A stretch of 39,834 bases of DNA from a virus (lineage: Duplodnaviria > Heunggongvirae > Uroviricota > Caudoviricetes): IMG/VR virus record IMGVR_UViG_2563366858_000008; one strand, 5' to 3'. Below, piece by piece: positions 1 through 39,834 of the stretch; the first letter of the stretch is position 1; every line of letters begins with the position of its first letter. The notes beneath the pieces were generated by a model, which ran no database searches, was not told the origin of the DNA, and saw only the letters and a list, made by a program, of their open reading frames with translations. The position numbers and the translations under genes are program-made.

Positions 1-516
1 ATGAAATTTAAAAAATGTCTTCTGCCTGTGGCAATGTTAGCGTCATTCACTCTGGCAGGATGCCAGTCAAATGCTGATGATCATGCCGCCGATGTTTATC
101 AAACCGATCAACTGAATACCAAACAAGAAACTAAAACCGTTAATATTATTTCCATTCTTCCCGCAAAAGTTGCCGTAGACAACTCCCAAAATAAACGGAA
201 CGCACAAGCCTTCGGCGCGCTTATTGGTGCAGTCGCTGGCGGTGTAATCGGCCACAACGTGGGGTCTGGCAGCAATTCCGGAACGACGGCAGGTGCAGTT
301 GGCGGCGGAGCTGTTGGCGCGGCAGCGGGTTCTATGGTGAATGATAAAACCTTAGTGGAAGGTGTTTCTTTAACGTATAAGGAAGGCACCAAAGTGTATA
401 CCTCCACCCAGGTGGGTAAAGAGTGCCAGTTTACGACAGGTTTAGCCGTTGTTATTACCACGACGTATAACGAAACGCGTATTCAGCCAAATACGAAATG
501 TCCTGAAAAGAGCTAA
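1..516 (+). CDS. yfgH: Glycine-zipper outer-membrane lipoprotein (YfgH/YcfJ-like); host flank
   Basis: Signal peptide with lipobox LAGC; Gly/Ala-rich GAVAGGVIGH segment typical of YcfJ-type lipoproteins. Symbol from recalled similarity and 171-aa length, not verified. Confidence 0.6.
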   Translation: MKFKKCLLPVAMLASFTLAGCQSNADDHAADVYQTDQLNTKQETKTVNIISILPAKVAVDNSQNKRNAQAFGALIGAVAGGVIGHNVGSGSNSGTTAGAVGGGAVGAAAGSMVNDKTLVEGVSLTYKEGTKVYTSTQVGKECQFTTGLAVVITTTYNETRIQPNTKCPEKS

Positions 517-531
517 TGATCAGGAGGAGTC

Positions 532-1071
532 ATGAAGAAAGTTTTTCTTTGCGCCATCTTAGCCTCCTTAAGCTATCCGGCTATCGCCTCATCATTGCAG
601 GATCAACTCTCGGCTGTCGCAGAAGCGGAACAGCAAGGTAAAAATGAAGAGCAAAGGCAGCATGACGAATGGGTCGCGGAGCGCAACAGGGAAATCCAGC
701 AAGAGAAGCAACGTCGCGCAAACGCCCAGGCCGCGGCTAATAAAAGAGCGGCAACGGCAGCGGCGAATAAGAAAGCTCGTCAGGATAAACTGGACGCCGA
801 AGCCACTGCGGACAAAAAACGCGATCAAAGTTATGAAGATGAGCTACGCAGCTTAGAGATTCAGAAACAAAAACTGGCGCTGGCGAAAGAAGAAGCCCGC
901 GTCAAGCGCGAAAACGAATTTATCGATCAGGAACTGAAGCACAAAGCTGCGCAAACCGATGTGGTGCAATCTGAAGCTGACGCAAACAGAAATATGACTG
1001 AAGGCGGTCGCGATCTGATGAAAAGCGTGGGCAAAGCAGAAGAGAACAAATCGGACAGCTGGTTTAACTAA
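532..1071 (+). CDS. yfgI: Secreted coiled-coil protein (YfgI-like); host flank
   Basis: AGGAGG 6 nt upstream of ATG; signal peptide then charged coiled-coil; 179 aa. Symbol from recalled similarity, not verified. Confidence 0.6.
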   Translation: MKKVFLCAILASLSYPAIASSLQDQLSAVAEAEQQGKNEEQRQHDEWVAERNREIQQEKQRRANAQAAANKRAATAAANKKARQDKLDAEATADKKRDQSYEDELRSLEIQKQKLALAKEEARVKRENEFIDQELKHKAAQTDVVQSEADANRNMTEGGRDLMKSVGKAEENKSDSWFN

Positions 1072-3241: not shown

Positions 3242-5182
3242 ATGTCTTATTTAAAATACAGAACAGATATTGATGGGCTGCGAGCTATTGCGGTTTTGCT
3301 GGTCGTGCTGTACCACGCAAACTTTCCTATTCATGGTGGTTTTATTGGTGTAGATGTTTTTTTCGTCATATCAGGATATCTCATTACCAACATCATATAT
3401 AAAGAGACTAAAAGAAATATTTTTTCATTCCTTAATTTTTACAAACGTCGAATAAAGCGATTGCTCCCAGCTTTTGCTTTTCTTCTTTTATTTTTATTTG
3501 TTTACTGCAAATTATATTTGATGCCAGATGAACTTATATCATTCTCTAAAAGTGCGGTATACGCTCTTCTTGGCATAAGCAATTTCTATTTTTTTAGTGG
3601 CACAGGTTACTTTAACTCAACCTCTTATGAACCGCTTTTACACACATGGTCGCTTTCCGTTGAAGAGCAGTTCTACATTGTATGGCCTTTCATCGTTTTC
3701 ATGCTCGCTCGGAACTCAGGGACAAAAAAAGCAATAATAATATCCTCATTACTATTTATTGTATTCCTTGGTATTTCACAGTATGGAGCAGTTAATTATA
3801 AAACAGCAGCGTATCTCCTACTGCCTTTTAGGTTCTTTGAGTTGCTCTCAGGTGCCCTACTTGCTATCTATAAAGATTCAATAACAAAACATCTGCGCCA
3901 CGGTTCTGTAATTTCACTGGTCGGCGTAATGCTGATTGTGTTGAGTTCATTATTTATAAATTCTAACACGCCATTTCCTGGGTTCACTGTTTTGCCTACA
4001 TGTTTAGGCGCTGTAATGCTTATTGCTGCAGGTGACTCATCCAAAAACTTCATTTCTAAAGTGCTGTCTTTAACTCCAGTTGTTTATGTAGGAAGAATTT
4101 CCTACTCTCTTTATTTATGGCACTGGCCTGTACTGATTCTTGCTGAATACAGGGGGATCGATCTTACGGCCTTAAATGCGACGGCGCTCATACTTATCGC
4201 ATTCATCATGGCAAGCATAAGCTATCACTTCGTTGAAAAGCCATTTAGGAAGGATTCGCTGCAATATTTCAGGACTGCATTTATAACCATCTACCTGATA
4301 CCATTAATAGTATCCGCTGCCTATGCAGCGTACATTTTAAAAAATGATGGTTTTCGCGCCAAAAGTTCAGAGTTAGTATCTGAATTAGAAGAGAGAAACG
4401 CGACAAATATTATGCGCCCACAGTGTATTGATAAATTATTTATCGGTAATGTAAATGACTGTCATCTTGGCGTTAATAAAGGCGAAGTAGATGGCGTGCT
4501 TCTTGGTGACTCCTTTGGTAATGCATATGCTTACTTTATTGATGAACTTGCGAAAGATGCTGGAATATCAATAACAGATACTACATATAGCTCAACACCT
4601 GTAATATCAGGAATTTATGTGCAGGATATCAGGAATAAGATATCTGACATAGATGCTAACCTGATAATGACATATACAAAAAACAGGCTGGAGTATGCAG
4701 CAAAACAAAAGTTCGCGATAATTTCCGTTTTTTGGGATCAGTACGGGCCACAAAATAATTACTTCCGTATCTTCGATAAAAACGGTGACGTATCGGAGAA
4801 TGCTTACCAGTTGCAATCTGAAGCAATAAAATATCTGCTGTCCAATGGCGTGAAAGTTTACATCATTGCAAGACCTTACCAGTCTATTGGCCCTGCTGCG
4901 ATAAACAAACTGCGCCAAATTAAGCTGCGGCATGGGGATGTAACTACTGAAAAATATGAATACGGCGTAAAGAAAGATGATCGGATAGAATACAAGTTAA
5001 AGCAGGAGTTCCCTCAGATAACGCTAATCGATCCTAACGATGTACTTTGCCACAAAGGGGAATGTGATGCCATCGTGGATGGAAAGATCATTTTCAGAAC
5101 TGATGGTTCACACCTGAATGCTGTTGGAGCAAAAAAAATCGGGGAAGAGTATTTGAAAAACTACGCAAACCCATTTCGATAA
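3242..5182 (+). CDS. O-antigen O-acetyltransferase, acyltransferase-3 membrane domain plus SGNH domain (OafA/Oac-like); lysogenic conversion
   Basis: N-terminal multi-TM domain with conserved YRxDIDGLRAIAV...H motif; C-terminal GDSFG (SGNH) motif; 646 aa; AT-rich relative to neighbours. Confidence 0.85.
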   Translation: MSYLKYRTDIDGLRAIAVLLVVLYHANFPIHGGFIGVDVFFVISGYLITNIIYKETKRNIFSFLNFYKRRIKRLLPAFAFLLLFLFVYCKLYLMPDELISFSKSAVYALLGISNFYFFSGTGYFNSTSYEPLLHTWSLSVEEQFYIVWPFIVFMLARNSGTKKAIIISSLLFIVFLGISQYGAVNYKTAAYLLLPFRFFELLSGALLAIYKDSITKHLRHGSVISLVGVMLIVLSSLFINSNTPFPGFTVLPTCLGAVMLIAAGDSSKNFISKVLSLTPVVYVGRISYSLYLWHWPVLILAEYRGIDLTALNATALILIAFIMASISYHFVEKPFRKDSLQYFRTAFITIYLIPLIVSAAYAAYILKNDGFRAKSSELVSELEERNATNIMRPQCIDKLFIGNVNDCHLGVNKGEVDGVLLGDSFGNAYAYFIDELAKDAGISITDTTYSSTPVISGIYVQDIRNKISDIDANLIMTYTKNRLEYAAKQKFAIISVFWDQYGPQNNYFRIFDKNGDVSENAYQLQSEAIKYLLSNGVKVYIIARPYQSIGPAAINKLRQIKLRHGDVTTEKYEYGVKKDDRIEYKLKQEFPQITLIDPNDVLCHKGECDAIVDGKIIFRTDGSHLNAVGAKKIGEEYLKNYANPFR

Positions 5183-7897: not shown

Positions 7898-7904
7898 ATT
7901 TAAA

Positions 7905-7920
7905 GGCCGCGAAAGCGGCC
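7905..7920 (-). terminator. Intrinsic terminator after the lipoprotein gene
   Basis: GGCCGC-gaaa-GCGGCC hairpin; on the minus strand followed by TTTAAATTT. Confidence 0.6.
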
Positions 7921-7921
7921 T

Positions 7922-7933
7922 GTGACATGTCAC
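7922..7933. repeat. 12-bp perfect palindrome GTGACATGTCAC, copy 1
   Basis: Between lipoprotein stop (7937) and terminator hairpin. Confidence 0.8.
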
Positions 7934-7936
7934 GAC

Positions 7937-8350
7937 TTATAAAGATGACTGATATTTTACAACTCTGTTCATGGCATCTTTTTTCACCGAGCTGATATCA
8001 GTTCTTATTTTGGCTTCGTCATTACTGTTTATCATGCTATTAACTTTTTGCACAGACATGCCGTTTCTTTCAGCCATTGCACATACAGCAGCATCGTATG
8101 AAGAACTCGCTGCGATGGATATAACCTTGTTACACTCAAACACAGCACCTTCAGCAATATCAGATGCCGATGATGCTGACTTGGTATAAGTCTTGACGTA
8201 GTGATCAATACAACTATCCTTCGCCGTCTTGGCAAGAGAAAAATCCATTTTAACCTTGTCGCAATATGCCTTATCAACACCGTCATAAACATCATAGGAT
8301 GTCGAGCAAGCGGATATCAAAAATACCGATAACAGCAATAATTCCTTCAT
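7937..8350 (-). CDS. Lipoprotein moron (possible superinfection exclusion)
   Basis: Signal peptide with lipobox ISAC; 137 aa; AT-rich; between ejection-protein genes and tailspike. Confidence 0.6.
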   Translation of the reverse strand: MKELLLLSVFLISACSTSYDVYDGVDKAYCDKVKMDFSLAKTAKDSCIDHYVKTYTKSASSASDIAEGAVFECNKVISIAASSSYDAAVCAMAERNGMSVQKVNSMINSNDEAKIRTDISSVKKDAMNRVVKYQSSL

Positions 8351-22151: not shown

Positions 22152-22448
22152 TCACTCCTGTTCACTGGCCTCTTTGGCCATCTTCAAATACTGTTCAGGG
22201 CAATGCGCCATAACGCGCTGAAACAGTTCCAGCGCCAGATTGCGTTGCCCCTCATTAAATGCCATAGCCATAGCGTCCATCGGTGAGATAGCAGAAAACA
22301 CACGGCCTTTCTCCAGCACCGACCAGACAACGCGACGCCCCTGTTCACTGCTCATGACAAAGCGAATGTCATCAATTTCACGCTGTGCCATGTCACGTTG
22401 CTTACGGGCGTTTTCTTCTTTCAGTTGATCGTCTTCGTAATCTGTCAT
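22152..22448 (-). CDS. Small head-assembly protein
   Basis: 98 aa; ATGA overlap with portal stop. Confidence 0.5.
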   Translation of the reverse strand: MTDYEDDQLKEENARKQRDMAQREIDDIRFVMSSEQGRRVVWSVLEKGRVFSAISPMDAMAMAFNEGQRNLALELFQRVMAHCPEQYLKMAKEASEQE

Positions 22449-25012: not shown

Positions 25013-25036
25013 GCCCGGTTCGCCGGGCATTTTTTT
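25013..25036 (+). terminator. Terminator-like hairpin in the 5' leader of the 25053 gene
   Basis: GCCCGG-ttcg-CCGGGC followed by ATTTTTTT; RBS AAGGTGAG directly after. Confidence 0.6.
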
Positions 25037-25052
25037 AAGGTGAGATTAGACT

Positions 25053-25424
25053 ATGAGTGACAAAGACATTGAATCTGAAATTCAGGCTAAAGGTTTAGCC
25101 GCGCCGCGCGTTACGCCAGACCATATCGAGAGCATTATTGCTCAGGAGGCATATTTCACAGCAGAAGATGGTGTCTTTGGCGTAGCCATAAAAGCGAAAC
25201 ATACTGGCGGAGAGGTAAACTACCAGCCGCACGAATCACTTTCTCTGCTGACGTTCTGCGTTCTGGTGCTGCGCAACGGCTTCACCGTCACCGGAGAGAG
25301 CGCCTGTGCAAGCCCGGAAAACTTTGATGCGGAAATTGGTCGGAAGATTGCCCGGCAGAATGCTGTAAACAAAATCTGGATGCTTGAAGGTTACTTGCTG
25401 AAGCAGAAGTTAAGCGAGCAATAA
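25053..25424 (+). CDS. Moron protein of unknown function, co-located with the tRNA
   Basis: AAGGTGAG RBS; 123 aa; opposite strand to flanking terminase and portal genes. Confidence 0.65.
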   Translation: MSDKDIESEIQAKGLAAPRVTPDHIESIIAQEAYFTAEDGVFGVAIKAKHTGGEVNYQPHESLSLLTFCVLVLRNGFTVTGESACASPENFDAEIGRKIARQNAVNKIWMLEGYLLKQKLSEQ

Positions 25425-25428
25425 CACC

Positions 25429-25440
25429 GTGACATGTCAC
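25429..25440. repeat. 12-bp perfect palindrome GTGACATGTCAC, copy 2
   Basis: 4 bp after the stop of the 25053 gene, immediately before a terminator. Confidence 0.8.
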
Positions 25441-25444
25441 AAAC

Positions 25445-25471
25445 AGCCAGCCGATGAGCTGGCTTTGTTTT
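25445..25471 (+). terminator. Intrinsic terminator
   Basis: AGCCAGC-cgatga-GCTGGCT followed by TTGTTTTAT. Confidence 0.7.
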
Positions 25472-25514: not shown

Positions 25515-26990
25515 TTAAGCATAGGGATCGTAATCTATAATGGCCTTGCCTTGCTGGTTCTGCTGCCCGGGAATTCGCAGACGCTTAGACACAGGGAACG
25601 CAAACGTCAGCAGTAGCGCATCGCCTTTACCCGGCGAACGCCCAAGCCGCTCCTTGATATCTTCCTTCGGTTCGATAACGATTTTACCGTCCACTCGAAC
25701 TTTGTACTCTGCCGCCGACAGGTCGTCCGCTGTTTCCTGGTCATCCAGCATGCCGCCCAGCCTCAGCCATGTCTTGCATGAGTTGAACATCTCCCCACGC
25801 TTGTTGAGCATCTGCGGGTCAGTAGACGCGCCACCGAACGGAACAAGTTGCCATGTGCGCCCCCAACCGTCACCGATTGACTTCAGCCCGGTACCGTAAC
25901 CGAAGTCGATGAACACCGCGTCAGCCTGATACTGGTCTTCAAAGTCAGCGATACGCTTTGCCATAATCAGATCGTCAGTGGTCTTGTTGCCGGTCCACAG
26001 CACCTTACTGTGCAGCCCCTGCCGCAGGTATATCACCGCGTCATCAACACCGGAGTATGCAGGGTCAACGCCGATTATCACCGGAGCATGTGCCACCTGC
26101 GCAGCAGTTACCACCCGTTTCATTGCCTCGTCAGTAAGACCGGTAGGGATAAACTGCAATTCAGATGCATCCGGGAATATGCCGCGCACACGGATTTTAA
26201 CGAAGTCGCTGTCTTCCCCGTAGTCATCAACCCATTTCTGCAACTGCTGTTTGTTAGTGCCTTCCACCGTCCGGCTGTCAATCTGCGCAGTTTTCCAGCG
26301 GTGTTTATATTTGCGGAAACATTCGCGGAAACGCCCGGTGTTACGTGTAGGGTTTCCGAATGCCACCCAGATAATCTCAGTGTCTTCGTCCGTCAGCGCC
26401 CCCTCAGCAACTTCCCACACCAGATCCGCAATGTTCGACGCTTCATCGAATACCACGATGATGCGTTTGCGCTCGTTGTGTAGTCCGGCGAATGCCTCAG
26501 TGTTGTGCTCAGACCAGGGTATTGCGTCAGCCCGCCACCGCTTGTCGTGCCCTGGGTCATTGCTGTACATCGCGGTAGCGGTACAGGTAAACCAGTCTTT
26601 CGTGATAGCAAGGTTCGACCACTTGATAATTTCCGGCCAGGTCTTCGTTCGTAGCTGGTTGTCGGTGTTGGCGGTCACCACGACCTTACAATCCTCGCAA
26701 GTGGACATGCCCCAGTTGATCAGCATTGAGATAAATGCGGATTTACCAATACCGTGACCAGAAGCGCGTGCCAGCATAAGCGGCTGATAGCGCGTCTCCG
26801 GATTCTGCAGGTGATCACGTATCTCTCGGAACGCATCAGCCTGCCACTGACGTGGGCCGGTAGCATGTGCCAGTTCAGTCCCCTCTTCCCCCCACGGGAA
26901 CGCATAGAGGGCATAGCCAAGCGGATCGTGAGTGAACCCTGCAATATCCTCGATCAACTGCTCTTCAGGAGATAACGCTGTATCTGTCAC
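25515..26990 (-). CDS. Terminase large subunit
   Basis: 491 aa; N-terminal ATPase region with P-loop-like GHGIGKS and C-terminal nuclease-like region; ATGA overlap with small subunit. Confidence 0.9.
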   Translation of the reverse strand: MTDTALSPEEQLIEDIAGFTHDPLGYALYAFPWGEEGTELAHATGPRQWQADAFREIRDHLQNPETRYQPLMLARASGHGIGKSAFISMLINWGMSTCEDCKVVVTANTDNQLRTKTWPEIIKWSNLAITKDWFTCTATAMYSNDPGHDKRWRADAIPWSEHNTEAFAGLHNERKRIIVVFDEASNIADLVWEVAEGALTDEDTEIIWVAFGNPTRNTGRFRECFRKYKHRWKTAQIDSRTVEGTNKQQLQKWVDDYGEDSDFVKIRVRGIFPDASELQFIPTGLTDEAMKRVVTAAQVAHAPVIIGVDPAYSGVDDAVIYLRQGLHSKVLWTGNKTTDDLIMAKRIADFEDQYQADAVFIDFGYGTGLKSIGDGWGRTWQLVPFGGASTDPQMLNKRGEMFNSCKTWLRLGGMLDDQETADDLSAAEYKVRVDGKIVIEPKEDIKERLGRSPGKGDALLLTFAFPVSKRLRIPGQQNQQGKAIIDYDPYA

Positions 26991-27583
26991 TGATTGCCAT
27001 CCTGACGTTCTTTCAGTCTCTTCCTGGCTGCCGCTATGCGATCAGCAATTGTCACATTCACATTAACATCCAGGCGTTCTTTGAACGCGTTGACATCAAC
27101 ATGCTTACCAATCAGCTCAAGGTTCTTCACCTTGTCAGGCCATTTAATTTTTTTGAGGATTGTCTCTATCGAATCCTCGTTCATGTTCATGATGGTCGAT
27201 GACAGATCAAAGCCACTAAGCGTAGTGCGCCAGATTTTCGGCCACTCACGGATTGGTTTAAGGCTCCCATCGTCGTTGAGGATATCGATCACGTCCATCT
27301 GGTCGATCTCCACCAGGCGCATGAGAACGTAATCAGCACTGACGCGCATTCGTTTGTTGCGCTCCTCCATCAACTCGGCAATCCGTTTTTGAATGCGTAC
27401 ATCGCGCATCATGACACTGGCTTTAACTGCCGCTGTATTTGGGGAGAACCCTGCGTTAATCGCTGCCTGAGTCTGGTTTTCAGGCGTTTTGATGTATGAC
27501 TGGCAATAAGCCTCCTGCATTGCTGTGAGCGGCTTAAATTGCGTTGATTTGCGTTTATAGGTTTTAGGTTCAGCAGGCATCAT
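26987..27583 (-). CDS. Terminase small subunit
   Basis: Start MMPAEPK at ATG 27583 (the track's N-terminal extension to 27661 crosses a terminator and operator repeats); motif QEAYCQSYIKT...AAINAGFS typical of small subunits. Confidence 0.75.
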   Translation of the reverse strand: MMPAEPKTYKRKSTQFKPLTAMQEAYCQSYIKTPENQTQAAINAGFSPNTAAVKASVMMRDVRIQKRIAELMEERNKRMRVSADYVLMRLVEIDQMDVIDILNDDGSLKPIREWPKIWRTTLSGFDLSSTIMNMNEDSIETILKKIKWPDKVKNLELIGKHVDVNAFKERLDVNVNVTIADRIAAARKRLKERQDGNQ

Positions 27584-27597
27584 AACCACCGTGGTAA
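27583..27597. promoter_or_regulatory. Operator-like repeat TAACCACCGTGGTAA (1 mismatch), overlapping terS start
   Basis: Adjacent to the perfect copy at 27601; 18 bp centre-to-centre. Confidence 0.45.
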
Positions 27598-27600
27598 TAG

Positions 27601-27615
27601 TTACCGTTGTGGTAA
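27601..27615. promoter_or_regulatory. Operator-like inverted repeat TTACCGTTGTGGTAA (perfect)
   Basis: Between the late-leader terminator and the terS start codon. Confidence 0.6.
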
Positions 27616-27622
27616 TAGTACC

Positions 27623-27652
27623 ATGCAAAATAAAGCCGCCATAGTTGGCGGC
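27623..27652 (-). terminator. Intrinsic terminator immediately upstream of the terminase genes (tR'-like)
   Basis: GCCGCC-aactat-GGCGGC followed by TTTATTTTG on the minus strand. Confidence 0.65.
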
Positions 27653-27657
27653 AGTAT

Positions 27658-27870
27658 TCAAAGTCCATCAAATTCATCGTAAAAACTCTCGTCAAGATAC
27701 CCTTCCCATTTACCGCGAATGAAAATTACATCCTCGCCGCAAGGGTGCTGACTGTCGATAACTATATCCCTCCTGGCGCAACCATACTTATGCATGAGAA
27801 ATTTAACCTCTTTCGGAAAATTTGCTGAGTTATCTCTCATATCTTCAAGGTCGTAGCGTATTTTTGGCAT
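27658..27870 (-). CDS. Small protein of unknown function
   Basis: Start MPKIRYD at ATG 27870 with GAAGGTG RBS; 70 aa; the track start at 27891 is a GTG inside the palindrome. Confidence 0.5.
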   Translation of the reverse strand: MPKIRYDLEDMRDNSANFPKEVKFLMHKYGCARRDIVIDSQHPCGEDVIFIRGKWEGYLDESFYDEFDGL

Positions 27871-27879
27871 AACACCTTC

Positions 27880-27891
27880 GTGACATGTCAC
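27880..27891. repeat. 12-bp perfect palindrome GTGACATGTCAC, copy 3
   Basis: Contains the TGA stop of the 27888..28226 gene and abuts the RBS of the 27658..27870 gene. Confidence 0.8.
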
Positions 27892-28226
27892 ACTATTAAT
27901 TTTGTTTCATGCCAGCCTTTAGTCACCCAGCATTGCGAGTCACCATTGCACGGGCATGAATTAACTGGAACTCTCTCGCCGCACTTACCGCAACGTTTTC
28001 TGCTGATCGATTTTATACGCCCGCGCACGCGTGCATCATCCTGGCGGATCAGTAACGCTATATACTCACCAAATTCGTAAGGCACACGCCCGGGGCGACG
28101 CGTGGCGCAGTTCCGCTCCAGCATTTCAATTTCCTGAGCATCAAGCACAATCTCCAGCTTACGTACACCGGATGCAGCTTGTCTGGCTCTCTGAGCGGCT
28201 TTGCGCTCTGCTGCTGATTTAGCCAT
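27888..28226 (-). CDS. Zinc-ribbon protein (candidate late-gene regulator)
   Basis: Start MAKSAAERK at ATG 28226 (in-frame ATG 28232 and GTG 28238 upstream); C-terminal CGKCG...CPCNG four-Cys motif; last regulatory-sized gene before the late-operon terminator. Confidence 0.5.
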   Translation of the reverse strand: MAKSAAERKAAQRARQAASGVRKLEIVLDAQEIEMLERNCATRRPGRVPYEFGEYIALLIRQDDARVRGRIKSISRKRCGKCGERVPVNSCPCNGDSQCWVTKGWHETKLIV

Positions 28227-28311
28227 TACCATATCCACCCAATTTCACCAGACATAATTCTCGCAATCACTATCATAACCAAAGTGATAATCACAACTTT
28301 AACTGGCGGCA

Positions 28312-38583: not shown

Positions 38584-39834
38584 TTATTCCTCCGCCATCC
38601 ACTTCTCAAACTTCGACGGGGAGAACGGAATCAGATCCGTATGCTCCCCGTTAATCCAGGAATCAATCATATCGGCCCACTGCTGCAACATGTAGGCGCG
38701 CTGTCTGGCGTATTCCGCTTTGTTATATACGGCGCGCACACCTTTCTGCTCATGTGCCAGAGCCTTTTCAATCCAGTCTGAAGGATAACCAGCCTCATGC
38801 AACAACGTACTGGCTGTACGGCGCATATCATGTACAGTGAAGTCCTGAATATGATCACCATCTTCATTTATTATTTTCACCGTTCTGTCGATCAGAGAGT
38901 TCAGCGCGGCATTAGATAATGGCTTCCGGAAATTGTAACGACCAGGAACCAGATATTCACTTCCACCAGCGCACATCTGCAACCCGATTAATATATCCTG
39001 TGCCTGTTTAGGCAGGTAAATAACGTGCGCCCGACTTCCCTTCATGCGGTCTGAAGGAATTGTCCATGTCCATTTTTTAAAATCTATTTCATCCCACGTT
39101 GCATTGGTGAATTCGCCTTTACGAACCATAGTGATAAGCACCAGCTTTAAAGCCATTTTCATAGTGCCCATAGCACCAATGGCATCCAGCGTGCGGAAGA
39201 ACAGACCAATTTCTTCTGGTGTCAGTGTTCGCTCTCGTGGTTTAAATATGGCGATAGACGAAGGTTTAATGTCAGCCGCAGGATTAAACAAACCATGACC
39301 ACGGTCATTGGCGTGACGGTATACGCTGCTGATGATCTCCCTGGCCTGCACTGCTGTTGCCCGACCACCGCGTTCGACAATCCGGTCACACAAATCACGA
39401 ACCATCGATGTGGTAATTTCAGCCATTATTTTGTTGCCAAGAACCGGAAGTATGTCACGGTCGATCACCGCCTGCTTCATTGCGCGGGTACTGTCAGCCA
39501 GGATGACGTGTTTCATATAACTGTCGGTATGTACCGCAAACGTCTCGGCACCACGAATCTTTTTGATACCGTCACGTTTAGCCGCAGCCGGCGACTGGCC
39601 TGCTTTAAGCAGCTTCTTTGCAGCAATCAGTTCTTCTCGCGCTTCTGCCAGGCTGATACCGTCACGCCCATACTGCCCGATTACCAGTGTTTCGCGGCGA
39701 CCGTTGATACGGTAGTCATAGCGAAACGAGACCGTGCCTGACGTAAGCACAGCTACATACAGCCCGTCACGATCGGAGACCTTGTACAGTTTGTCCTGCG
39801 GCTTGAGGTTTTTTAATTTTGTATCGGTAAGCAC
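38584..39834 (-). CDS. int: Tyrosine integrase, P4-like; start at window edge
   Basis: N-terminal LTDTKLKNLKP...YKVSDRDGLYVAV arm-binding-like domain; C-terminal HDMRRT and VYNKAEY catalytic Tyr region; GTG at 39832..39834, upstream context not visible. Confidence 0.9.
   Translation of the reverse strand: MLTDTKLKNLKPQDKLYKVSDRDGLYVAVLTSGTVSFRYDYRINGRRETLVIGQYGRDGISLAEAREELIAAKKLLKAGQSPAAAKRDGIKKIRGAETFAVHTDSYMKHVILADSTRAMKQAVIDRDILPVLGNKIMAEITTSMVRDLCDRIVERGGRATAVQAREIISSVYRHANDRGHGLFNPAADIKPSSIAIFKPRERTLTPEEIGLFFRTLDAIGAMGTMKMALKLVLITMVRKGEFTNATWDEIDFKKWTWTIPSDRMKGSRAHVIYLPKQAQDILIGLQMCAGGSEYLVPGRYNFRKPLSNAALNSLIDRTVKIINEDGDHIQDFTVHDMRRTASTLLHEAGYPSDWIEKALAHEQKGVRAVYNKAEYARQRAYMLQQWADMIDSWINGEHTDLIPFSPSKFEKWMAEE

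What the first reader, a model, noticed from the sequence alone, without database searches (positions are those of the whole stretch)
27880..27891. Second dispersed motif: 12-bp perfect palindrome GTGACATGTCAC, three exact copies at gene 3' ends (copy 3)
The same palindrome occurs at 7922, 25429 and 27880, far above chance for 40 kb. Each copy lies within 5 bp of a stop codon; two are followed by a terminator hairpin at the edge of an opposite-strand moron; this copy contains the stop codon and sits just upstream of the next RBS. With only a 2-nt possible loop it is unlikely to act as an RNA hairpin, so it is more likely a protein-binding DNA site or a module-boundary recombination site. A related dyad GTGATAATCAC occurs at 28284..28294 upstream of the zinc-ribbon gene.
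Basis: seen in the sequence. Interest (0 to 1): 0.7.

Follow-up and report, generated by a model that had tools for sequence, protein, structure and literature searches.

The report
Operator of a phage ribbon-helix-helix regulator
The thrice-repeated palindrome is real and is very probably the DNA docking site of a small, uncharacterised phage DNA-binding protein encoded right next to copy 3; this gene-plus-site pair recurs in many unrelated phages, where the site sits at operon ends and at the edges of swappable accessory-gene slots.

Summary
Confirmed: GTGACATGTCAC occurs exactly three times (7922, 25429, 27880; 0.02 expected). The window is a phiV10/epsilon15-like podophage, and the same 12-mer sits at the three homologous positions in epsilon15, phiV10 and Tyrion while the flanks diverge. 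Copy 3 overlaps the TGA stop of a 112-aa gene (27888-28226, minus strand). This gene has no Pfam family. Its model shows a probable ribbon-helix-helix core plus a four-cysteine C-terminus. Wherever I found homologues, GTGAC-NN-GTCAC recurs 50- to 160-fold above expectation: Uetakeviruses, Pantoea AH07, N15/phiKO2, P2-like, Mu-like, lambdoid and Vibrio phages, and a Paraglaciecola prophage. It usually overlaps that gene's stop codon and also occurs at 1-3 non-homologous places. The full site is 14 bp (Y-GTGAC-NN-GTCAC-R). It differs from the prophage-repressor operator. Where a terminator hairpin is adjacent, the site lies on its 5' side (31 of 32). In this phage group copies 1 and 2 close hypervariable single-gene slots. 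Best reading: the cognate operator of this protein, controlling transcription across operon boundaries. Binding and its direction of effect are inferred, not shown. The 'related dyad' at 28284 is not conserved. I found no description of the motif or a characterised family member: a new variant of a known kind.

The parts
7922..7933 (.). Site S1, GTGACATGTCAC. It closes the late (minus-strand) structural operon, 3 nt after the stop of ORF 7937-8350, and abuts the terminator stem.
   Evidence: The same 12-mer is at the homologous place in epsilon15 (19517), phiV10 (19493) and Tyrion (20377).
25429..25440 (.). Site S2. It lies 4 nt after the stop of plus-strand cargo ORF 25053-25424 and 4 nt before its terminator hairpin. 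TerL (minus strand) ends at 25515.
   Evidence: Homologous copies are in epsilon15 (2142), phiV10 (2262) and Tyrion (2702).
27880..27891 (.). Site S3 (the finding). It overlaps the TGA stop of the RHH/zinc-ribbon gene and ends 9 nt upstream of the ATG of orf70.
   Evidence: The register is the same (G = last base of the final sense codon, then TGA) in epsilon15, Tyrion, AH07, N15, phiKO2 and a Paraglaciecola MAG.
27888..28226 (-). Gene for the 112-aa candidate binder (epsilon15 gp49 / phiV10 p55 / N15 gp46 family, phrog_536). It has an N-terminal basic helix, a ribbon-helix-helix-like core and a four-cysteine C-terminus.
7904..7921 (-). Intrinsic-terminator hairpin AGGCCGC-TTTC-GCGGCCT followed by TTAAATTT, immediately 3' of S1 on the late strand.
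25445..25464 (+). Intrinsic-terminator hairpin AGCCAGC-CGATGA-GCTGGCT followed by TTGTTTTAT, 4 nt 3' of S2 on the cargo strand.
27635..27652 (-). Terminator hairpin GCCGCCAACTATGGCGGC plus T run. It separates the early-right operon (RHH gene, S3, orf70) from the terminase genes and is homologous to the epsilon15 terminator that lies 22 nt after its S3.
27658..27870 (-). orf70 (phrog_1541), a small ORF inserted between S3 and the terminator. It is deleted to a remnant in phiV10 and absent in epsilon15.
7937..8350 (-). Variable ORF of the S1 slot (137 aa, lipobox LISAC, phrog_8691). Relatives carry at least 7 unrelated ORFs here.
25053..25424 (+). Variable cargo ORF of the S2 slot (PF13876, N4 gp49 / Sf6 gene 66 family). 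Relatives carry more than 12 unrelated ORFs at exactly this place.
25013..25045 (+). Conserved 5' edge of the S2 slot: hairpin GCCCGGTTCGCCGGGC, T7, then the Shine-Dalgarno sequence AAGGTGA used by every cargo ORF.

Best explanation
The palindrome (full form Y-GTGAC-NN-GTCAC-R) is the cognate double-stranded DNA operator of the small protein encoded at 27888-28226. This protein probably binds as a dimer, with a ribbon-helix-helix-like core, a conserved N-terminal basic helix and a C-terminal zinc-binding knuckle.

Gene and site form a portable cassette, with the site overlapping the gene's own stop codon. Further copies are placed in other transcription units. In this phage the three copies sit at the 3' ends of three units: the early-right operon, the cargo gene after the large terminase gene, and the structural operon. 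Each is just upstream of an intrinsic terminator.

My committed mechanism is that the bound protein acts on RNA polymerase crossing these boundaries. Most likely it is a physical barrier (roadblock or insulator) that stops read-through between convergent or successive units, and, in other phages, inside early genes. Less likely it is a factor that lets polymerase read through the neighbouring terminator.

Shown: the motif, its conservation, its statistical link to the gene family, and its position rules. Inferred: binding, oligomeric state, and the direction of the effect.
For: 1. Non-chance and conserved. There are 3 copies against 0.02 expected. The same 12-mer is at the 3 homologous positions in epsilon15, phiV10 and Tyrion, whose flanks are diverged or unrelated.

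2. Link to the gene family in unrelated lineages, including copies that are not next to the gene:
- AH07: the stop-codon copy plus one inside the Q-like gene.
- N15 and phiKO2: the stop-codon copy, one in repA, and one in the ant-operon leader.
- A P2-like Yersinia phage: two sites 33 bp apart.
- Vibrio K303: three sites.
- Mu-like phages: 54 sites in 347 kb against 0.33 expected, including two in the transposase gene.
- 71 further loci: 115 sites against 1.2 expected.
- A Paraglaciecola MAG.

3. GTGAC is the only recurrent 5-N2-5 palindrome arm in 12 representative genomes: 28 copies, next best 4.

4. Reverse test. Of 80 short IMG/VR stretches picked by a 14-mer alone, 20 encode the protein. 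The family has only 149 representative clusters among 1.84 billion.

5. The extra positions -1 and +13 are Y and R in 96% of sites, although the search did not select for them. They do not pair-covary, which fits two half-sites read on duplex DNA.

7. Position. 45% of 82 distinct-context sites have a terminator-like hairpin within 40 nt, against 14% of other gene ends. In 31 of 32 the site is 5' of the terminator.

8. It is not the prophage-repressor operator, which is ATTACC-N5-GGTAAT.
Against: - No binding experiment exists. The co-occurrence is partly by construction, because most loci were fetched through the gene.
- 29 of 78 CII-type lambdoid loci keep the sites without the gene within 10 kb downstream.
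- The residues expected to face DNA on the beta-strand vary, although the site arms are invariant.
- The site is dispensable in places. phiV10 carries GTGACATGTTAC at S3. In 10 of 48 relatives with the gp66-like moron, S2 is point-mutated, and about a third of relatives lack S2 altogether.
- A roadblock placed just before a working terminator seems redundant.
- In phages that have their own Q protein (AH07, N15) the protein cannot be the main late switch.
Confidence: 0.6

Rival explanations
1. Loading site for a terminator read-through factor, analogous to Q. The protein binds the site, joins RNA polymerase as it passes, and makes it ignore the terminator that follows. At S3 this would let early-right transcripts enter the terminase and late genes once the protein has accumulated. 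At S1 it would let late transcripts run on to the tailspike and lysis genes.
For: The order is regulator gene, then site, then (0-30 nt) intrinsic terminator. It recurs with different terminators in epsilon15 and at least five other contexts, and the site is always 5' of the terminator (31 of 32). In L139 the site plus terminator lies inside a late operon, between the scaffold/protease and capsid genes. There is a weak profile match of residues 49-112 to the RNA-polymerase-binding TraR/YbiI zinc-finger proteins (E 0.04-0.05).
Confidence: 0.15
2. Recombination or cassette-boundary site. The motif, perhaps with its binding protein, is the crossover point at which accessory genes are swapped, making it a 'landing pad' for morons.
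For: Homology between relatives breaks within 0-7 bp of the S2 edge, and more than 12 unrelated cargo ORFs all stop 2-5 nt before it. The other edge of the slot is equally precise, a conserved Shine-Dalgarno sequence plus hairpin. At least 7 unrelated ORFs end 0-8 nt before S1. The content after S3 also varies: orf70, a UmuD-like moron, or nothing.
Against: The site also lies inside conserved essential genes, where no cassette boundary exists. In other phages the gp66-like cargo gene is not followed by the motif, so cargo and site do not travel together. A ribbon-helix-helix protein has no catalytic domain. Sharp junctions can arise from ordinary homologous exchange in the conserved flanks plus selection for compactness.
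Confidence: 0.12
3. RNA-level element in the 3' untranslated region. This could be a small hairpin or a processing or stability signal just upstream of the terminator, possibly bound by the protein's arginine-rich N-terminus.
For: The site is transcribed between the stop codon and the terminator, and it often lies 9-19 nt before the next start codon. The N-terminus is arginine-rich.
Against: The hairpin is marginal at -1.2 kcal/mol, and there is no consistent pairing with the terminator. The arms are invariant rather than covarying, and the flanks avoid Watson-Crick combinations. The protein core resembles duplex-DNA binders.
Confidence: 0.05
4. Site for a host factor or for a methylation or restriction system, unrelated to the neighbouring gene.
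For: The phage encodes an MT-A70 adenine methyltransferase, and the core contains CATG and GTNAC-type sequences.
Against: The central two bases vary (AT, CG, CA/TG, GC, AC), so CATG is not required. Hosts range from Enterobacteria to Vibrio, Mu-like prophages of unidentified hosts (the one weak DNA match was a Pseudomonas phage) and Paraglaciecola. Two to four copies per genome at fixed boundaries is unlike a modification motif.
Confidence: 0.05

Closest known systems
Phage P22 Arc and Mnt (ribbon-helix-helix repressors) and their operators; MetJ and the met-box
   Different: There is no detectable sequence relationship. The protein has an extra conserved N-terminal basic helix and a C-terminal four-cysteine module. 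Its sites are not at a promoter but at gene 3' ends, at terminators and inside genes. One site overlaps the gene's own stop codon.
Mycobacteriophage L5 'stoperators' (from memory: dispersed repressor sites that stop read-through)
   Same: Short sites dispersed in intergenic positions of a temperate phage and proposed to block elongating polymerase.
   Different: Stoperators are asymmetric, orientation-dependent and number around 20-30, and the prophage repressor binds them. Here the site is palindromic, there are 3 copies, it differs from the repressor operator, and it is linked to a different protein.
Lambda Q, its binding element, and the terminator tR'
   Same: The regulator gene lies at the distal end of the early-right operon, its DNA site follows immediately, then an intrinsic terminator and the late genes.
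   Different: No promoter or pause signal was seen at the site. There is no homology to any Q family. There are several sites per genome, some inside genes. Phages with their own Q also carry this system.
KorA/KorB global operators of IncP plasmids (from memory)
   Same: 12-13 bp palindromes scattered over a mobile element's backbone and bound by small global regulators.
   Different: The proteins and sequences are different. The plasmid operators lie mostly at promoters, and there are many more copies.
'Boundary sequences' between modules of lambdoid phages, and integron attC sites (from memory)
   Same: A short conserved sequence lies exactly at the junction of exchangeable genes.
   Different: No recombinase is associated with it. 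The site also occurs inside conserved genes, and cargo genes elsewhere lack it.

Membership tests
Ribbon-helix-helix (Arc/MetJ/CopG) DNA-binding superfamily (for the protein) | Strand, helix, helix topology of about 45 residues | tested here: inconclusive
Ribbon-helix-helix superfamily | Obligate dimer with an antiparallel two-stranded sheet inserted in the major groove of a dyad-symmetric site | not testable with these tools
   Only monomer prediction was available. The dyad symmetry of the 14-bp site fits.
Operator of the prophage repressor / stoperator | Same sequence as the operators in the immunity region | tested here: not met
   The epsilon15 record annotates ATTACC-N5-GGTAAT as repressor sites. 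The window has 13 such sites, none overlapping the palindrome.
Stoperator | Asymmetric, in one orientation relative to transcription, with tens of copies | tested here: not met
   The site is a perfect palindrome with 3 copies.
Q-type antitermination module | Protein belongs to a Q family (Pfam Phage_antitermQ, Antiterm or Phage_antiter_Q) | tested here: not met
   No Pfam hit for the protein or for 54 relatives.
Q-type antitermination module | The site is embedded in a promoter with a promoter-proximal pause and followed by a terminator | tested here: inconclusive
   A terminator follows in epsilon15-type contexts. The scan found no sigma-70-like promoter at or near S3.
Part of the intrinsic terminator itself | The sequence contributes to the G+C-rich stem or the U tract | tested here: not met
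   The site lies outside the stem in all contexts, 0-22 nt to the 5' side. Its own fold is only -1.2 kcal/mol.
DksA/TraR C4 zinc-finger family (for the C-terminal half) | CxxC-x17-CxxC finger matching Pfam zf-dskA_traR | tested here: not met
Site-specific recombination site (attC/att-like) | An associated recombinase, and presence at both ends of the exchanged cassette | tested here: not met
   The other edge of the S2 slot is a different sequence, a hairpin plus Shine-Dalgarno sequence. The only recombinase in the window is the integrase at 38584-39834.

The most novel reading that the evidence does not exclude
The protein and its 14-bp site form a dedicated system that defines and polices 'cargo slots' in temperate phage genomes. 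A site-bound factor next to a terminator would insulate interchangeable accessory genes from the essential operons around them, and might promote their precise ORF-for-ORF exchange. This would be a phage counterpart of an integron-like cassette platform or a programmable terminator.
Probability: 0.12. Interest if true: 0.9.

Novelty: new variant of a known kind. Interest (0 to 1): 0.68.

Why it matters
- It gives a testable function and a precise 14-bp target to a protein family that has no Pfam family and carries only generic labels ('hypothetical protein', or an untested 'transcriptional regulator' in PHROGs and some phage records). The family occurs in podo-, myo- and siphoviruses, Mu-like and P2-like phages, and telomere phages.
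- It adds a second layer of dispersed regulatory sites to epsilon15/phiV10-type phages, beside the repressor operators.
- It points to a rule (stop codon, site, terminator) that may explain how temperate phages keep convergent accessory genes and essential operons from interfering with each other.
- The same sites mark hypervariable single-gene slots with base-precise junctions. These are useful landmarks for finding phage cargo genes, and possibly for engineering insertions.

Tried and rejected
- Repressor operator: rejected, because the motif is different.
- pac or terminase site: the site lies before the small terminase gene in Uetakeviruses and K303, but not in N15, AH07, Mu-like or P2-like phages.
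- Late-promoter activator site: copies 1 and 2 have no gene to activate on either side. The promoter-like TTGACT after S3 in Salmonella relatives belongs to a LexA-controlled UmuD-like moron.
- Partner gene: orf70 and N15 gp47 are unrelated.
- Cargo and site moving as one unit: rejected for the gp66-like gene. S2 presence is not tied to that moron: both 38, site only 34, moron only 10, neither 23.
- TraR/DksA relationship: only a weak profile hit, not confirmed.
- Related dyad at 28284: not conserved.
- Literature: no paper contains the motif or its variants in a phage context. The epsilon15 genome paper could not be read.
- Searches that failed: alignment-based locus searches, P0192 and P0215 scans, a 12-mer collection scan, and the afdb50 fold library.

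Full report
**Observation.** GTGACATGTCAC occurs exactly three times in the window, at 7922, 25429 and 27880. Dinucleotide-preserving shuffles give 0.02, and no shuffle reaches three. Relaxing the centre to GTGAC-NN-GTCAC adds no further copy. A single 1-mismatch copy at 22385 lies inside an ORF and is probably chance.
- Copy 1 lies 3 nt after the stop of minus-strand ORF 7937-8350 and touches the hairpin 7904-7921.
- Copy 2 lies 4 nt after the stop of plus-strand ORF 25053-25424 and 4 nt before the hairpin 25445-25464.
- Copy 3 contains the TGA of minus-strand ORF 27888-28226 and ends 9 nt before the next ATG.

**What the window is.** It is a phiV10/epsilon15-like temperate podophage (genus Uetakevirus), with the late genes on the minus strand. 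In epsilon15, phiV10 and Enterobacter phage Tyrion the same 12-mer stands at the three homologous places: after the large terminase gene, at the end of the structural operon, and over the stop codon of the last early-right gene. The surrounding sequence is diverged or unrelated. phiV10's third copy spans the ends of the deposited record and carries one change, GTGACATGTTAC. The motif is not the repressor operator. The epsilon15 record annotates ATTACC-N5-GGTAAT as repressor sites, and the window has 13 such sites of its own.

**The neighbouring gene.** The ORF whose stop codon lies in copy 3 encodes 112 aa (epsilon15 gp49, phiV10 p55, N15 gp46; phrog_536). It has no Pfam or NCBIfam family, and database entries call it hypothetical. 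An exhaustive search finds only 149 representative clusters among 1.84 billion. An alignment of 54 full-length members shows:
- an invariant R8 and a nearly invariant R13 in an N-terminal basic helix;
- an invariant CxxC pair (C79, C82), a nearly invariant third cysteine (C99) and a fourth cysteine whose position shifts between members.

**Link between gene and motif.** Phages of quite different kinds that encode a homologue also carry GTGAC-NN-GTCAC:

| Lineage | Sites found |
|---|---|
| Pantoea myovirus AH07 | over the homologue's TGA, plus an exact copy inside the Q-like gene |
| N15 and phiKO2 | over the TGA of gp46/gp45, inside repA, and in the leader of the antirepressor operon |
| P2-like Yersinia phage | two sites 33 bp apart |
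| Vibrio phage K303 | three sites, two of them 19 nt before a start codon |
| Mu-like prophages | 54 sites in 347 kb (0.33 expected); one inside the homologue's 3' end, where it encodes VTGH, and two in the transposase gene |
| 71 further viral loci | 115 sites (1.2 expected), most overlapping the stop codon |
| 80 close E. coli relatives | 128 sites in 1.4 Mb |
| Paraglaciecola MAG | the same stop-codon register |

The copies away from the gene are at non-homologous places in each lineage, so the link is not mere hitch-hiking of the gene's 3' end. In 12 representative genomes GTGAC is the only recurrent 5-N2-5 palindrome arm: 28 copies in all 12, with the next best at 4.

In the reverse direction, a scan of IMG/VR with the 14-mer TGTGACATGTCACA returned short stretches, of which 20 of 80 encode the protein. 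Many of the others are the structural-operon copy of Uetakeviruses. Another group is lambdoid phages with one site inside the 3' part of a CII-like gene and one in the early-left operon. In that lambdoid group 78 of 80 loci have the sites and 51 of 80 have the gene 2.5-5 kb downstream. The remaining 29 are an unexplained exception.

**Anatomy of the site.** Positions -1 and +13 were not part of the search pattern, yet they are pyrimidine and purine in 96% of 82 distinct-context sites. The site is therefore a 14-bp dyad, and the central two bases are free. The flanking bases do not favour Watson-Crick combinations: C..A is seen 15 times against 8.5 expected. As RNA the 12-mer folds at only -1.2 kcal/mol and shows no consistent pairing with the terminators. 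This fits two half-sites read on duplex DNA by a symmetric dimer, not a hairpin.

**Position rules.**
- 45% of the 82 sites have a terminator-like hairpin within 40 nt, against 14% of other gene ends and 9% of random positions in the same loci.
- In 31 of the 32 sites that have an adjacent G+C-rich hairpin and T tract, the site lies 0-22 nt on the 5' side of the hairpin, in the direction with the better T tract. This holds in about eight or nine independent contexts.
- In the window the order is therefore stop codon, site, terminator for S1 (late strand) and S2 (cargo strand).
- At S3 a 70-codon ORF is inserted before the terminator 27652-27635. That terminator is followed by two repressor-type operators and the probable true start of the small terminase gene at 27580.
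- In other lineages sites lie inside early genes: repA, the transposase gene, a CII-like gene and a Q-like gene.

**Variable slots.** S2 and S1 each close a hypervariable single-ORF slot.
- At S2, homology between relatives stops within 0-7 bp of the site and resumes at a conserved hairpin, T7 and Shine-Dalgarno sequence AAGGTGA. More than a dozen unrelated convergent ORFs occupy the slot. They all start 4-5 nt after that Shine-Dalgarno sequence and stop 2-5 nt before the site.
- At S1, at least seven unrelated small membrane or lipoprotein ORFs follow the conserved virion gene and end 0-8 nt before the site.
- The site belongs to the slot, not to the cargo. The gp66-like gene in other phages has no such site, and S2 is present with many other cargos.
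- S2 is also dispensable. It is point-mutated in 10 of 48 relatives that have the same moron, and about a third of relatives lack it entirely.

**Interpretation.** The best-supported statement is that the palindrome is the operator of the neighbouring ribbon-helix-helix/zinc protein, inherited with it as a cassette and copied to other boundaries. What binding does is inferred.
- I favour a barrier to polymerase (roadblock or insulator). This is the only reading that fits sites at operon ends, between convergent genes and inside early genes, and phages that already have a Q protein.
- The rival is terminator read-through, which the gene-site-terminator order and the strict 5' position suggest.
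- A recombination role cannot be excluded, given the base-precise slot edges.
- RNA-level and host-factor readings are weak.

**Known or new.** Phage ribbon-helix-helix repressors with dyad operators are a known kind (Arc, Mnt). Here the family is uncharacterised, and its target had not been described in any paper I could search. The placement is also unusual: over its own stop codon, 5' of terminators, and at the edges of cargo slots. I rate it a new variant of a known kind, with interest 0.68.

Noticed in passing
window 25013-25440; relatives L010, L015, L032, L059, L112, L126-L144, L166, L179, L003: A hypervariable single-ORF slot lies after the large terminase gene. More than 12 unrelated convergent ORFs are placed between a conserved hairpin+T7+Shine-Dalgarno sequence (AAGGTGA) and site S2, with base-precise junctions. 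There is no room for a promoter, so how these cargo genes are transcribed is unclear.
   Followed up: partly
window 7937-8350; L001, L002, L003, L184, L192, L226, L238, L242: A second variable slot lies at the end of the structural operon. At least 7 unrelated small membrane, secreted or lipoprotein ORFs (46-137 aa) occupy it. The window's ORF has a lipobox (LISAC), so it may be a superinfection-exclusion-type moron.
   Followed up: partly
window 2949, 3191, 7549, 24436, 27583, 27601, 31432, 31494, 33464, 33801, 33849, 34561, 34623: There are 13 TTACC-N5-GGTAA sites (0.6 expected). They match the sites annotated as repressor-binding in epsilon15. They occur in pairs at likely promoters and singly ahead of the late units.
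   Followed up: partly
window 27580-27661; phiV10 record positions 41-120: The annotated TTG start of the phiV10 small terminase gene lies upstream of a terminator hairpin and two operators. The real start is probably the ATG that matches epsilon15 (window 27580).
   Followed up: partly
L119-L147, 10 to 110 nt after the stop-codon site: Salmonella, Citrobacter and Klebsiella relatives carry a TTGACT promoter with a perfect LexA box (TACTGTTTAAATATACAGTA), followed by a UmuD-like gene. This is inserted between the regulator gene and the terminase genes.
   Followed up: no
protein 27888-28226, residues 49-112: There is a weak profile similarity to the RNA-polymerase secondary-channel proteins TraR and YbiI (E 0.04-0.05). 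If real, the protein would join a DNA-binding domain to a polymerase-binding module. Pfam and fold searches do not confirm it.
   Followed up: partly
L300-L379 (lambdoid prophages): One site lies inside the 3' part of the CII-like gene, read as (C/R)-D-M-S-(Q/H), and a second lies about 5 kb to the left in the early-left operon. 29 of 78 such loci have no recognisable regulator gene within 10 kb downstream.
   Followed up: partly
window 22385-22396: A one-mismatch copy, GTGCCATGTCAC, lies inside the gp5-like ORF. It is also present in phiV10 but not in epsilon15, and is probably chance.
   Followed up: no
window 1-1071 and 3242-5182: These are cargo-like genes: a TraT/glycine-zipper lipoprotein-like ORF, a DUF5384 ORF, and an AT3+SGNH acyltransferase that is probably O-antigen modifying.
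   Followed up: no
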